DNA of 64,000 nucleotides from the NCBI RefSeq assembly GCF_009914755.1, contig NC_060926.1. One strand, 5' to 3'. The notes under the pieces were generated by a model. The model saw only the letters and a program-made list of their open reading frames with translations. It was not told the origin of the DNA and searched no databases. Made by a program: the position numbers and the translations under genes. Of this stretch, positions 9,682-39,025 are shown one piece after another; position 1 is the first letter of the stretch; every line of letters begins with the position of its first letter. This DNA comes from the human T2T-CHM13v2.0 reference genome, Homo sapiens.

Positions 9682-12600
9682 AGAATATTCATTTTGAAAT
9701 ACAAATCTAGCCAAGGAAAGTGATGAGGGACTGTGCTACCAGCCCCAGGTACTAGGCTTTTCCCACAGATTTTTGCAATCCTCGGATTAGGAGATTCCCT
9801 CGTGAGCCTGCGCCACCAGGGCCCTGGGTTTCAAGCACAAAACTGGGCGGCTGTTTGGGCAGGCACTGAGCTAACTACAGGAGGTTTTTTGTACTCCAGT
9901 GGCGCCTGGAACTCCAGAGATACAGGAGAACCGTCCACTTCCCTGGAAAGGGGGCTGAAGCCAGGGAGCCAACCAGCCTCACTCAGCGGGTCCCACTCCC
10001 ATGGAGCCCAGCAAGCTAAGAACCACTGGCTTGAAATTCTCACAGCCAGCACAGCAGTCTGGAGTTGACCTGGGATGGTGAGGGGAGGGGCATCCACCAT
10101 TACTGAGGCTTTAGTAGGCGGTTTTCCCCTGACAGTGCTAAGTAGACTGGGAGGTTTGGACTGGGCAGAATTCACCACAGTGCAGCAAAGCAGCTCCGGC
10201 CAGACTGCCTCTCTAGATTCCTCCTCACTGGGCAGGGCATCTCTGAAAGAAAGGCACCATCCCCAGTCAGAGGCTTATAGATAAAACTCTCATATTCCTG
10301 GGACAGAGTACCTGGGGGAGGGGCAGCTGCTGTGGAAGCTTCAGAAGACTTAATCTTTCCTGCCTGCAGGCTCTGAAGAGAACTGCAGATCCTGACAAGG
10401 GTGACTCTCCCAGCACAGTGCACTAGCTCTGCTAAGGGACAGACTGATTCCTCAAGTGGGTCCCTGACCCCCGTGCCTCCTGACTGGGAGACACCTCCCA
10501 AAAGGGGTCAACAGACACCTCATACAGGAGAGCTCCAGCTGGCATCAAGCCAATGCCCCTCTGGGACAAAGCTCCCAATGGAAGGAGCGGGCAGCAATCT
10601 TTTTTGTTCTGCAACCTCCACTGGTGATACCCAGGCAAACAGGGTCTGGAGTGGACCTCTAGCAAACTGTAGTAGACCTGCAGAAGAGGGGCTTGACTGT
10701 TAGAAGAAAAACTAACAAACAGAAAGCAATGAAAACAATGACATCAACAAAACAGACCCCCCTACAAATACCCCATCCAAAGATCATCAGCCTCAAAGAT
10801 TGAAGGTAGATAAATCCACGAAGATGAGGAAAAACTAGCACAAAAACACTGAAAATTCCAAAAGCCAGAAAGCCTCTTCTCCTCCAAATGATCGCAACTC
10901 CTCTCCAGCAAGGGCGCAAAACAGAACAAAGAATGAGACTCATGAATTGACAGAAGTAGGCTTCAGAAGGTAGGTAATAAACTCCTCTGAGCTACAGAAG
11001 CATGTTCTAACCCAATGCAAGGAAGCTCAGAACCTTGTTAAAAGGTTACAGGAACTGCTAACTAGAGTAACCAGTTTAGAGAGGAACGTAATTGACTTGA
11101 TGGAGCTGAAAAACACAGCTGGAGAACTTCGTGAAGCATACACAAGTATCAATAGCCAAACTGATCAAGCGGAAGAAAGGATACCAGAGATTGAGAACCA
11201 CCTTGCTTAAATAAGGCATGCAGACAAGATTAGAGAAAAAAAGAATGAAAAGGAACAAACAAAGCCTCCAAGAAATATGGGACTATGTGAAAAGACCAAA
11301 CCTACGATTGACTGGTGTACCTGAAAGTGACAGGAAGAATGGAACCAACTTGGAAAACACACTTTAAGATGTTATCCAGGAGAACTTCCCCAACCTAGAA
11401 AGACAGGCCAACATTCAAATTCAGGACATACAGAGAACACCACTAAGATACTACACGAGAAGATCAACTCCAAGATACATAATCATCAGATTCAACAAAG
11501 TTGAAATGAAGGAAAACATTTTAAGGGCAGCCAGAGAGAAAGGTCGGCTTACCCACAAAGGGAAGCCCATCAGACTAACAGCTGATCTCTTGGCAGAAAC
11601 TCTACAAGCCAGAAGAGAGTGGGGGCCAATATTCAACATTCTTAAAGAATTTTCAACCCAGAATTTCATATCCAGCCAAACTAAGCTTCATAAGTGAAGG
11701 AGAAATAAAATCCTTTCCAAACAAGCAAATGCTGAGGGATTTTGTCATCACCAGGCCTGCCTTACAAGAGATCCTGAAGGAAGCAATAATGTGGAAAGGA
11801 AAAACTGGTACAAGCCACTGCAAAAACACACCAAAATATAAAGACTAATGACACTATGAAGAAACTGCATCAATTAGTGTGCAAAATAACCAGCTAGCAT
11901 CATGACAAAATCAAATTCATAGTTACTTAACAATATCAACCTTTAATGTGAATGAGTTAAACGCCCCGATTAAAAGACACAGTCTTGCAAATTGGATAAA
12001 GAGTCAAGACCAATTGGTGTGCTATAATCAGGAGACCTGTCTCACATGCAAAGACACACATAGGCACAAAATAAAGGGATGGAGGAATATTTACCAAGCA
12101 AATGGAAAGCAAAAAAAAAAAAAAAAAAAAAAAAAAGGAGGGGTTGCAATCCTAGTCTCTGATAAAACAGATTTTAAACCAACAAAGATCAAAAAAAGAC
12201 AAAGAAGGACATTACATAATGGTAAAGGAATCAACGCAACAAGAAGAGCTAACTATCCTAAATATATATGCACCCAATCCAGGAGCACCCAGATTCATAA
12301 AACAAGTTCTTAGAGACCTACAAAGAGACTTAGACTCTCACACAATAATAGTGGGACACTCCACTGTCGATATTAGACAGATCAACAACACAGAAAATCA
12401 ACAAGGATATTCAGAACTTGAATTCAGCTCTGGATCACGTGGACCTAATAGACATCTACAGAACTCTCCACCCCAAATCAACAGAATATACATTATCCTC
12501 AGTGCAACATAGCACTTATTCTAATATCAACAACATAATTAGAAGTAAAACACTCCTCATCAAATGCAAAAGAACTGAAATCAGTGCAATCAAATTAGAA

Positions 12601-13453
12601 CTCAGGATTAAGAAACTCACTCAAAACCACACAACTCCATGGAAATTGAACAACGTGCTCCTGAATGACTCCTGGGTAAATAACAAAATTAAGGCAAAAA
12701 TCAAGAAGTTCTTTAAAACCAATGAGAACAAAAAAACAATATATCAGAATCTCTGGGACACAGCTAAAGCAGTGTTAAGAGGGAAATTTACAGCACTAAA
12801 TGCCCACATCAGAAAGCTGGAAAGATCTCAAATCGACACCCGAACATCATAATTAAAAGAACTAAAGAAGGAAGAGCAAACAAATTCAAAAGCTAGCAGA
12901 AAACAAGAAATAACTAAGGTCAGATCAGAACTGAAGGAGATAGAGACACAAAAAACCCTTCAACAAAAAATCAATGAATCCAGGAGCTGTTTTTTTTTAA
13001 ATAATAATAATAATAACAAAATAGACCACTAGCTAGACTAATAAAGAAAAAAGAGAGAAGAATCAAATAGACACAATAGAAAATGATAAAGGGGATATCA
13101 CCACTAATCCCACAGAAATACAAACTACCATCAGAGAATACTATAAACACCTCTATGCAAATAGACTAGAAAATCTAGAAGAAACAGATAAATTCCTGGA
13201 CACATATACCCCCTCACAAGACTAAACCAGGAAGAAGTTAAATACCTAAATAGACCAATAACAAGTTCTGAAACTGAGGCAGTAACTAGCAGCCTACCAA
13301 GGAAAAAAAGCCCAGGACCAGAAGGATTCACAGCCAAATTCTACCAGAGGTACAAAGAGGAGCTGATACCATTTCTTCTGAAACTATTCTAAACAACTGA
13401 AAAAGAGGAACTCCTCCCTAACTCATTTTATGAGGCCAGCATCATCCTGATTC

Positions 13454-37946: not shown

Positions 37947-38009
37947 TATGATGTTAGCTGGTGATTTTGCTCATTAGTTGATGCAGTTTCTTCCTAGTCT
38001 CGATGGTCT

Positions 38010-39025
38010 TTACATTTTGGCATGATTTTGCAGCGGCTGGTACCGGTTGTTCCTTTCCATGTTTAGCGCTTCCTTCAGGAGCTCTTTTAGGGCAGGCCTG
38101 GTGGTGACAAAATCTCTCAGCATTTGCTTGTCTATAAAGTATTTTATTTCTCCTTCACTTATGAAGCTTAGTTTGGCTGGATATGAAATTCTGGGTTGAA
38201 AATTATTTTCTTTAAGAATGTTGAATATTGGCCCCCACTCTCTTCTGGCTTGTAGGGTTTCTGCCGAGAGATCCGCTGTTAGTCTGATGGGCTTCCCTTT
38301 GTGGGTAAGCCGACCTTTCTCTCTGGCTGCCCTTAACATTTTTTCCTTCATTTCAACTTTGGTGAATCTGACAATTATGTGTCTTGGAGTTGCTCTTCTC
38401 GAGGAGTATCTTTGTGGCGTTCTCTGTATTTCCTGAATCTGAACGTTGGCCTGCCTTGCTAGATTGGGGAAGTTCTCCTGGATAATATCCTGCAGAGTGT
38501 TTTCCAACTTGGTTCCATTCTCCACATCACTTTCAGGTACACCAATCAGACGTAGATTTGGTCTTTTCACATAGTCCCATATTTCTTGGAGGCTTTGCTC
38601 ATTTCTTTTTATTCTTTTTTCTCTAAACTTCCCTTCTCGCTTCATTTCATTCATTTCATCTTCCATTGCTGATACCCTTTCTTCCAGTTGATCGCATCGG
38701 CTCCTGAGGCTTCTGCATTCTTCACGTAGTTCTCGAGCCTTGGTTTTCAGCTCCATCAGCTCCTTTAAGCACTTCTCTGTATTGGTTATTCTAGTTATAC
38801 ATTCTTCTAAATTTTTTTCAAAGTTTTCAACTTCTTTGCCTTTGGTTTAATGTCCTCCCGTAGCTCAGAGTAATTTGATCGTCTGAAGCCTTCTTCTCTC
38901 AGCTCATCAAAATCATTCTCCATCCAGCTTTGTTCTGTTGCTGGCGAGGAACTGCGTTCCTTTGGAGGAGGAGAGGCGCTCTGTGTTTTAGAGTTTCCAG
39001 TTTTTCTGTTCTGTTTTTTCCCCAT
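38010..39025 (-). pseudogene. E4 ORF1p with a 1-nt frameshift near 38849
   Basis: MGKKQNRKTGNSKTQ start; diverges at REDI|KPKAKK; 1016 bp span versus 1017 expected; C-terminal 248 aa open. Confidence 0.92.

What the first reader, a model, noticed from the sequence alone, without database searches (positions are those of the whole stretch)
11542..38316. One ORF1 variant (GGTCGGCTTACCCAC, KGRLTHK) is present in all four neighbouring L1s, from an old L1PA7/8 to a human-specific L1HS
Seen: the identical string aaaggtcggCttacccAcaaagggaagcccatcagactaacagc occurs in E1 (C at 11548), E2 (C at 20152), E3 inverted arm (G at 27912) and E4 (G at 38309, T at 38302). All four ORF1 translations read KGRLTHKGKPIRL. 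Each element has its own TSD and different subfamily diagnostics, so they are independent insertions. Established (from recollection): L1HS reads ggtcgggttaccctc (KGRVTLK), L1PA3-7 ggtcgggttacccac (KGRVTHK) and L1PA8 roughly ggccaggtcacctac; none has the G>C. In E4 two bases 7 nt apart changed together, while flanking L1HS-type bases remain at 38274 and 38413, bounding a tract of 8-138 bp. Inference: this non-CpG transversion spread by repeated short non-allelic gene conversion, most recently after a pre-Ta L1HS inserted, i.e. in the human lineage. Presence in 4/4 available copies suggests a directional process: a break hotspot where the original allele is cut and repaired from an uncut neighbour, or selection on the motif.
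Basis: partly seen in the sequence, partly recalled or inferred. Interest (0 to 1): 0.92.

Follow-up and report, generated by a model that had tools for sequence, protein, structure and literature searches.

The report
Neighbouring L1 repeats share copied patch
Four separately inserted L1 repeats lying within 27 kb carry the same rare base change, most likely because short stretches were copied from one neighbour into another during DNA repair, a known process shown here in an unusually clean example.

Summary
The 15-mer GGTCGGCTTACCCAC and the 44-mer around it occur exactly four times in the window, in the only four L1 copies that cover this ORF1 site. In the whole assembly the C form has 29 copies, against 2,672 (…GGGTTACCCAC) and 1,918 (…GGGTTACCCTC). 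So it is rare, and 4 of the 29 copies lie within 27 kb.

E2, E3 and E4 have their own target-site duplications.

- **E4:** it is 98.7–99.3% identical to young copies and reads ACG at the 3'UTR site that I recall as diagnostic for pre-Ta L1HS. It departs from its nearest relatives at three sites in 15 bp, all matching its neighbours, with its own class's bases on both flanks. The tract is 15–138 bp.
- **E2 and E3:** they share a 351-bp exact block carrying a variant combination found nowhere else in the genome.
- **E1:** it shares only the single base. Chance is about 1%, so conversion is probable but not shown.

Best reading: short non-allelic gene conversion between neighbouring L1s. I found no support for a break hotspot, drive or selection. 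Control variants also show same-variant neighbour pairs (odds ratio 20), so this is one case of a general pattern already described for Alu.

The parts
10783..17399 (+). E1, an old L1 copy. It is 82-85% identical to E4 and is interrupted by inserted sequence between 13451 and 14862.
   Evidence: blastn against E4. Its nearest copies in the sample are 88-89.6% identical.
11521..11590 (+). 70-bp block of E1 that is identical to E2 and E3. It contains the C variant at 11548.
   Evidence: Exact-match extension. Runs of 64-70 bp also occur between E1 and unrelated copies, so the block length proves nothing. Only the C is unusual.
19004..24564 (+). E2, a mid-age L1, 5'-truncated. It is flanked by the 15-bp TSD GAAAGTAGTTAAAAA at 18989 and 24565.
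20048..20398 (+). E2 side of the 351-bp block that is identical to E3. The C variant is at 20152.
   Evidence: The block holds shared rare variants at q1588, q1692, q1802, q1914 and q1932 and no difference private to either copy. Only 1 of 491 unrelated pairs at 94-97% identity reaches a run of 351 bp or more.
26741..28342 (-). E3 inverted 5' arm (twin-priming structure). The outer TSD copy GAATACACTGACTTC is at 26726.
27666..28016 (-). E3 side of the 351-bp block that is identical to E2. The variant (G on the + strand) is at 27912.
28346..30502 (+). E3 direct 3' arm, ending in the poly-A tail and the second TSD copy at 30503.
33885..39934 (-). E4, a full-length young L1 (L1HS pre-Ta type). 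The TSD AAGTGTC lies at 33878 and 39935. Both reading frames are interrupted.
   Evidence: 98.7-99.3% identical to young copies. Its 3'UTR reads GATGACACG, like 4 of its 6 nearest relatives. TSD. ORF list.
38275..38412 (-). Maximum extent of the converted tract in E4: the 138 bp identical to E2 and E3, flanked by E4's own class states at 38274 and 38413.
38295..38309 (-). Minimum converted tract in E4. The three sites 38309, 38302 and 38295 carry the neighbours' states.
   Evidence: All 20 of 20 CTC-class copies differ from E4 at the first two sites, and 5 of E4's 6 nearest relatives differ at the third.
34908..34908 (-). Candidate second converted site in E4 (q5093 C, as in E2 and E3). The bounds are 34845-34958.
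   Evidence: The C form makes up 3.7% of copies genome-wide. By my arithmetic one such match has a chance of about 0.16, so this is not significant.

Best explanation
A G>C mutation arose once in one of the older L1 copies at this locus (E2, E3 or E1). It was then copied into the neighbouring L1s by short non-allelic (ectopic) gene conversion, that is, homology-directed repair using a nearby L1 8-18 kb away as the template.

**Shown**
- E2 and E3 were homogenised over at least 351 bp.
- The young E4 received a 15-138 bp patch of older-type sequence after it inserted.

**Inferred**
- E1 exchanged a patch of 70 bp or less with E2/E3. The direction is unknown.
- Each donor was a local neighbour rather than a distant copy.
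- Both clear events are recent. The 351-bp block has no differences, and E4 has only about 0.5% private divergence.
- The tracts lie where the elements are most alike, which is what a homology requirement predicts.

No special hotspot or drive is needed.
For: **Rarity and clustering**
- The C form has 29 copies, against 2,672 and 1,918 for the two G forms. Four of the 29 lie in 27 kb.
- The other 25 C copies range from 70.5% to 96.5% identity to E4 over the aligned stretch (the lowest values are copies truncated within it). None carries the full E2/E3 haplotype; single E2/E3 states appear in L018 (q1429 G) and L022 (q1588 T). They look like independent mutations.

**Independent insertions**
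- E2, E3 and E4 have separate TSDs.

**E4**
- It has about 30 private differences in about 5,900 bp.
- Three of them lie within 15 bp and all equal the neighbours' states.
- E4 matches 0 of 180 rare variants private to E2 or to E3.
- E4 keeps its own class states at 38413 and 38274.

**E2-E3**
- They share a 351-bp exact block. The empirical tail is 1 of 491 unrelated pairs.
- Shared rare variants number 11 in the 1.6-kb 5' arm against 4 in the 2.2-kb 3' arm.
- No other copy in the genome combines q1588T, this motif type and q1802C: the lists overlap only at this locus.

**E1**
- It matches 2 of the 4 rare transversions shared by E2 and E3, against 2 of 69 of their private ones.

**Genome-wide**
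- Same-variant pairs within 200 kb number 6 of 719, against 1 of 2,441 cross-variant pairs (odds ratio 20, p = 8e-4).

**Literature (passages seen)**
- Conversion between neighbouring Alus within about 10 kb: PMC6598467 and PMC8230782, both citing Aleshin and Zhi 2010.
- L1 conversion tracts as short as 13 bp in mouse cells: PMC1920257, citing Tremblay et al. 2000.
- Old Alu elements converting young ones: PMC8230782.
Against: - **No pre-conversion state was seen.** No orthologous ape locus or other human haplotype was available, so every event is inferred from one assembly.
- **E1 is weak.** It rests on a single base, with a chance of about 1% (25 of about 2,700 copies with this motif type). 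It has 9 differences of its own from E2/E3 between q1588 and q1692, so the two sites it shares cannot be one continuous tract. One of them, q1588T, is simply the native state of older subfamilies (385 copies; 20 of 20 fetched carriers are old-type).
- **The E2-E3 block is not beyond the null.** Its length is in the tail but one unrelated pair reached 356 bp.
- **Older shared history is unresolved.** Shared rare variants outside the block, interleaved with private ones, need either older conversions or some shared ancestry.
- **The genome-wide excess is ambiguous.** Same-variant neighbours could partly reflect ancient local duplications rather than conversion. The four such pairs examined share further rare variants over about 0.5-1.5 kb.
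Confidence: 0.8

Rival explanations
1. Directional spread. The site is a break or recombination hotspot, or the C allele is favoured in conversion or by selection, so the variant is driven into every neighbouring copy.
For: All 4 of 4 local copies carry the derived allele. The two clearest tracts in the locus are nested: E4's 138 bp lies inside the E2-E3 351 bp, which by my arithmetic has about a 6-9% chance. Both look recent, since the 351-bp block has no differences and E4 is a young element.
Against: The finding was selected because every copy has the site, so the overlap is largely a product of how it was found. Three events all going one way has a chance of about 1/8 even without bias. 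G>C and T>A are neutral for GC-biased conversion. No PRDM9-type 13-mer lies within 4 kb of any site (a weak test, with the motif recalled from memory). E4's frames are interrupted. The other 25 C copies are mostly alone. Control variants at other positions form neighbour pairs just as often.
Confidence: 0.1
2. Common descent, not conversion. E2 and E3 (and the patch in E4) come from one minor L1 source lineage that carried the variant, and its progeny landed next to each other.
For: E2 and E3 share rare variants outside the identical block too (q1307, q1429, q2146, q2459, q2846, q4330). Another L1 variant, q5093C, shows strong regional clumping of copies that share a small haplotype, so clumps of related copies do exist.
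Against: No other copy in the genome combines the E2/E3 markers. Shared variants are unevenly spread, 11 against 4 between the two arms, and the 351-bp block has no private differences where about 14 are expected (my arithmetic). E2 is 5'-truncated, so it is an unlikely parent. E4 belongs to a different, much younger class on both sides of the patch. E1 is much older.
Confidence: 0.07
3. Independent recurrent mutation. The same G>C change arose separately in each copy, for example at a mutable site.
For: About 25 unrelated copies elsewhere carry the C, roughly what random mutation predicts. For E1 alone this remains a live option, at about 1%.
Against: (29/4619)^4 is about 1.6e-9 (my arithmetic). 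In E4 the change comes with two further changes within 15 bp, all to the neighbours' states. In E2/E3 it sits inside a 351-bp identical block.
Confidence: 0.02
4. Assembly or polishing cross-talk between similar L1 copies in T2T-CHM13.
For: Nothing positive. The data come from a single assembly and no reads were available.
Against: The copies differ by 4-16% in their flanks, so long reads should place uniquely. The patches are internally coherent and bounded by each element's own states. This is reasoning, not a test.
Confidence: 0.02

Closest known systems
Homogenisation of neighbouring Alu elements by non-allelic gene conversion (Aleshin and Zhi 2010, as described in passages of PMC6598467 and PMC8230782)
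   Same: Rare, non-diagnostic variants are shared by repeats lying within about 10 kb of each other. The effect depends on distance. I see the same excess of same-variant neighbours among L1 copies.
   Different: The elements here are L1s of very different ages, not Alus. The tracts are small parts of 6-kb elements. The Aleshin and Zhi paper itself was not held; I saw only how others describe it.
Repair of a break in a LINE by gene conversion from other endogenous LINEs (Tremblay, Jasin and Chartrand 2000, as cited in a passage of PMC1920257)
   Same: L1 copies serve as ectopic repair templates, and tracts can be very short (13 bp is cited). This fits the 15-138 bp patch in E4.
   Different: That was an induced break in cultured mouse cells, with donors from across the genome. 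Here the event is germline, natural and apparently local. The paper itself was not held.
Old-to-young conversion of Alu elements, called 'life after death' (PMC8230782, passages)
   Same: An older, inactive element overwrites part of a younger one, as E2/E3/E1-type sequence did in the L1HS copy E4.
   Different: Those cases were defined by a change of subfamily at orthologous loci across primates. Here the pre-conversion state is inferred from E4's relatives, not observed.

Membership tests
Non-allelic (ectopic) gene conversion between dispersed repeats | Donor and acceptor are separate insertions, not duplicates of one another | tested here: met
   E2, E3 and E4 each have their own TSD and different structures: 5'-truncated, twin-primed and full-length. 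E1's TSD was not checked.
Non-allelic (ectopic) gene conversion between dispersed repeats | A continuous run of donor-type states in the acceptor, flanked by the acceptor's own states | tested here: met
   E4: three consecutive informative sites (38309, 38302, 38295) carry neighbour states, with its own class states at 38413 and 38274. E2/E3: 351-bp exact block. E1: inconclusive, a single site.
Non-allelic (ectopic) gene conversion between dispersed repeats | The transferred states are foreign to the acceptor's own lineage | tested here: met
   0 of 20 CTC-class copies have E4's states at the first two sites, and 5 of its 6 nearest relatives differ at the third. Only 29 copies genome-wide have the C, and none of the other 25 is of the young class.
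Non-allelic (ectopic) gene conversion between dispersed repeats | The pre-conversion state is seen at the orthologous locus in another species or haplotype | not testable with these tools
   No ape genomes or other human assemblies are held.
L1HS pre-Ta (for E4) | ACG at the 3'UTR diagnostic trinucleotide (recalled: ACA in Ta, ACG in pre-Ta, other in older families) and near-identity to other young copies | tested here: met
   E4 reads GATGACACG, as do L065, L056, L060 and L053, while L057 and L058 read ACA. E4 is 98.7-99.3% identical to these copies. The diagnostic is recalled from memory and comes from no library.
L1HS pre-Ta (for E4) | The insertion is absent from other apes | not testable with these tools
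   No ape assemblies are held.
PRDM9-type meiotic recombination hotspot at the site | Presence of the degenerate 13-mer CCNCCNTNNCCNC near the tracts | tested here: not met
   There are 4 matches in the window, at 24385, 50830, 51551 and 61572. None is within 4 kb of a variant site. The motif is recalled, and its absence does not exclude a hotspot.
Segmental or tandem duplication of one L1 copy | Shared flanks and shared insertion structure | tested here: not met
   The TSDs, truncation points and orientation differ. Repeat families stop at the L1 ends.

The most novel reading that the evidence does not exclude
L1 copies do not age independently. Rare variants may spread regionally among L1s of different ages over tens to hundreds of kilobases, and this locus (4 of 4 copies) would be an extreme case, perhaps helped by a preferred exchange site in the conserved 3' half of ORF1.

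Pointers in that direction:
- A 20-fold excess of same-variant neighbour pairs.
- Additional rare variants shared by each of the four such pairs examined.
- The clumping of the q5093C form, where 50 of 100 listed copies have a same-variant copy within 100 kb against 4-8% expected.

If true, divergence-based dating and source-lineage trees of L1s would be biased region by region.
Probability: 0.2. Interest if true: 0.75.

Novelty: new member of a known kind. Interest (0 to 1): 0.45.

Why it matters
This is a clean natural example of short-tract conversion between L1 elements of very different ages, including an old, dead copy overwriting part of a young L1HS. It shows that 'private' mutations in L1 copies can be borrowed from neighbours. 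That matters for dating L1s by divergence, for subfamily calls, for tracing source elements, and for reading apparent clustered mutations in repeats. The genome-wide control suggests the effect is general for L1, as already reported for Alu. The mechanism itself is known.

Tried and rejected
- **C as a sub-lineage marker: rejected.** The other 25 C copies span many ages and lack the E2/E3 haplotype.
- **q1588T as a second rare variant tying E1 to E2/E3: withdrawn.** It has 385 copies genome-wide and is the normal state of older subfamilies. It is native in E1 and foreign only in E2/E3.
- **E1's 70-bp identity block as a tract: rejected as evidence.** Runs of 64-70 bp occur between E1 and unrelated copies, and another copy has the same local haplotype with G.
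- **E1-E3 and E1-E2 shared variants at q1505, q1509 and q1515.** An unshared site lies between them, and they recur in other copies. I treat them as chance or mutable sites.
- **q5093C in E4 as a second tract.** It is only a candidate, because the C form is 3.7% of copies.
- **PRDM9 motif search:** nothing near the sites.
- **Strict 'absent from all 65' doubleton test.** It was blurred by non-L1 flanks of truncated copies and by a true duplicate pair (L027/L028). I used it only qualitatively.
- **Sources not available.** Earlier scan findings were not open. Aleshin and Zhi 2010 and Tremblay 2000 were not held. Two papers searched for 'gene conversion' gave nothing on L1.
- **Literature coverage.** My three literature searches listed no systematic study of L1-L1 neighbour conversion in humans. 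Subscription papers are not covered, so this does not show that none exists.
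Full report
**Coordinates**

q is the position in the reverse complement of window 33800-40000, so window coordinate = 40001 - q. The variant is at q1692.

**1. The observation**

The 15-mer GGTCGGCTTACCCAC occurs four times in the window with no mismatch and nowhere else at up to two mismatches. The 44-mer around it is also identical four times. It reads KGRLTHKGKPIRLT. A blastn of the full-length element E4 against the window shows that only four L1 copies cover this part of ORF1:
- E1 (10783-17399, +)
- E2 (about 19004-24564, +)
- the inverted arm of E3 (28342-26736)
- E4 (39934-33885, -)

So 4 of 4 available copies carry the variant.

**2. Is it rare?**

Yes. Over the whole assembly the C form has 29 exact copies. 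GGTCGGGTTACCCAC has 2,672 and GGTCGGGTTACCCTC has 1,918. Twenty fetched copies of an older type all read G at this position, inside motifs such as GGTCAGGTTACCTAC or GGCCAGGTCACCTAC.

I fetched the 25 other C copies. Their identity to E4 over the aligned stretch ranges from 70.5% to 96.5%, the lowest values being copies truncated within it. None carries the full E2/E3 haplotype, although single E2/E3 states appear in L018 and L022. They look like independent hits, about as many as random mutation would give. Four of 29 copies in 27 kb cannot be chance: (29/4619)^4 is about 1.6e-9 by my arithmetic.

**3. Independent insertions**

- E4 is flanked by AAGTGTC (33878 and 39935).
- E3 is flanked by GAATACACTGACTTC (26726 and 30503). 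This repeat encloses both the inverted and the direct arm, as expected for one twin-primed insertion.
- E2 is flanked by GAAAGTAGTTAAAAA (18989 and 24565).
- I did not check E1's ends.

**4. E4**

- E4 is 98.7-99.3% identical to the youngest copies in my sample.
- It reads GATGACACG in the 3'UTR, as do four of its six nearest relatives; two read ACA. From memory, ACG marks pre-Ta L1HS.
- Against the majority of eight young copies, E4 has about 30 differences in about 5,900 bp.
- Two of these are 38309 (G>C) and 38302 (T>A). All 20 CTC-class copies differ from E4 at both.
- A third is 38295, where E4 has G like E1-E3, while five of its six nearest relatives have A.
- So three changes within 15 bp all match the neighbours' states. 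On either side E4 keeps its own class states, at 38413 and 38274. The exact match to E2 and E3 is 38275-38412, 138 bp.
- As a control, E4 matches none of 180 rare variants private to E2 or to E3.
- I take this as a converted patch of 15-138 bp, received after insertion.
- A second possible patch at 34908 (q5093) is not significant. That C form is 3.7% of copies, and one chance match among E4's private changes is not unlikely.
- Both reading frames of E4 are interrupted.

**5. E2 and E3**

- The two are about 95-96% identical, no closer than each is to unrelated copies of similar age.
- Even so, E2 20048-20398 equals E3 28016-27666 exactly, 351 bp.
- Among 491 unrelated pairs at 94-97% identity over the same region, the longest exact run has a median of 105 bp and a 99th percentile of 228 bp. 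One pair reaches 356 bp.
- The block contains five shared variants that are rare in my background sample (q1588T, q1692C, q1802C, q1914C, q1932C) and no difference private to either copy.
- Individually these are not unique. q1588T has 385 copies and q1802C has 196. The combination is unique: 13 copies have q1588T with this motif type and 15 have the motif with q1802C, and the two lists overlap only at this locus.
- Shared rare variants are denser in the 5' arm (11 in 1.6 kb) than in the 3' arm (4 in 2.2 kb). This argues against simple common descent.
- I read this as a recent conversion of at least 351 bp, laid over some older exchange. With no differences in 351 bp, and a rate of about 0.17% per million years (recalled), the event is younger than roughly 2.5 million years at 95%. 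That figure is my arithmetic.

**6. E1**

- E1 is old: 82-85% identical to E4, with nearest sampled copies at 88-89.6%.
- It is identical to E2/E3 over 70 bp around the site, but runs of 64-70 bp also occur between E1 and unrelated copies.
- Another copy, at chr2:186803534, has the same local haplotype with G.
- The second variant that seemed to tie E1 to E2/E3, q1588T, is the native state of older subfamilies. It is therefore foreign in E2/E3 rather than in E1.
- Nine differences private to E1 lie between q1588 and q1692, so there is no continuous tract.
- What remains is the single C, with a chance of about 1%, plus a modest excess: E1 matches 2 of the 4 rare transversions shared by E2 and E3, against 2 of 69 of their private ones.
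- A patch of 70 bp or less, in either direction, is probable but not shown.

**7. Hotspot, drive or selection**

I found nothing positive.
- The events were found because they include the site.
- The nesting of E4's tract inside the E2-E3 block has about a 6-9% chance.
- No PRDM9-type 13-mer lies within 4 kb of any site (the motif is recalled).
- The base changes are neutral for GC-biased conversion.
- The tract in E4 lies in one of the longer stretches of identity between E4 and E2/E3. A homology requirement predicts this, although the conversion itself lengthens that stretch.

**8. Is this locus special?**

Only in degree.
- I searched control variants at two other positions of the same 15-mer. 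Counting the window's cluster as one copy, 6 of 719 same-variant pairs lie within 200 kb, against 1 of 2,441 cross-variant pairs (odds ratio 20, p = 8e-4).
- A further variant class (q2146A, 53 copies) again shows pairs 5-35 kb apart.
- The four same-variant neighbour pairs I could examine (L002/L003, L012/L013, L106/L107, L108/L109) share additional rare variants while differing by 5-12% within the L1 part.
- Whether these pairs reflect conversion or ancient local duplication is open.

**9. What is known**

From passages I read:
- Conversion between neighbouring Alus within about 10 kb is established (PMC6598467 and PMC8230782, citing Aleshin and Zhi 2010).
- Old elements can overwrite young ones (PMC8230782).
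- Most such work has been on Alu (PMC8230782).
- L1 conversion tracts as short as 13 bp were seen in mouse cells (PMC1920257, citing Tremblay et al. 2000).
- A 2026 preprint on pangenome L1s lists gene conversion among the processes that blur L1 history (PMC13192797, one passage).

The two primary papers were not held. My three searches listed no systematic study of L1-L1 neighbour conversion in humans, but subscription journals are not covered.

**10. Verdict**

The directional or hotspot part is unsupported. This is a new and clean member of a known kind of event.

Noticed in passing
window 34908 (E4), with the same site in E2 and E3; genome-wide lists; loci L110-L117: The ORF2 variant ATGGGATCTCATTAAACTA has 608 copies, against 15,867 for the A form, and it is strongly clumped. 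Of the first 100 listed copies, 50 have another C copy within 100 kb, where 4-8% is expected if C were a random subset. Nine lie in chr1:59.09-59.47 Mb. Of eight fetched there, seven are 94-96% alike pairwise, and five also share three further variants, one of them absent from all 20 background copies. Possible causes are ancient tandem duplication, regional clumping of one L1 sub-lineage, or regional homogenisation. This is unresolved.
   Followed up: partly
L002/L003 (chr2:35.02 and 35.12 Mb, about 1 Mb from the window) and L012/L013 (chr7:158.10 and 158.29 Mb): Two further pairs of C-variant copies lie 97 kb and 190 kb apart. L002/L003 share five additional rare variants and L012/L013 share three, at about 94.5-94.8% identity. 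Seven of the 29 C copies lie on chr2 between 31.5 and 36.1 Mb.
   Followed up: partly
L106/L107 (chr11:55.31 and 55.34 Mb) and L108/L109 (chr3:4.21 and 4.24 Mb): These control-variant neighbour pairs, 23 and 31 kb apart in opposite orientation, share nine and four rare variants respectively, while differing by about 7-12% in the L1 part. One member of the chr11 pair is truncated where the other is not.
   Followed up: partly
window 20040-20056 (E2) and 28008-28024 (E3): E2 and E3 carry the older-subfamily states AACACCA[C/T]TAAG (q1583A and q1588T). These states are foreign to their age class: 0 of 40 background copies have q1588T, and q1583A is in the minority. They match E1's native state, within bounds of at most 25 bp relative to E1. 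This could be a very short patch from E1 or another old L1, or a coincidence.
   Followed up: partly
L027 and L028 (chr1:12.36 and 12.77 Mb): These two background copies share 114 otherwise unique states, including their non-L1 flank. They are a true segmental duplicate pair. I left them out of the run-length null.
   Followed up: no
window 41879-43079 and 31926-32601: Two further old L1 fragments (82% and 72% identical to E4) lie next to the cluster. They do not cover the ORF1 site.
   Followed up: no
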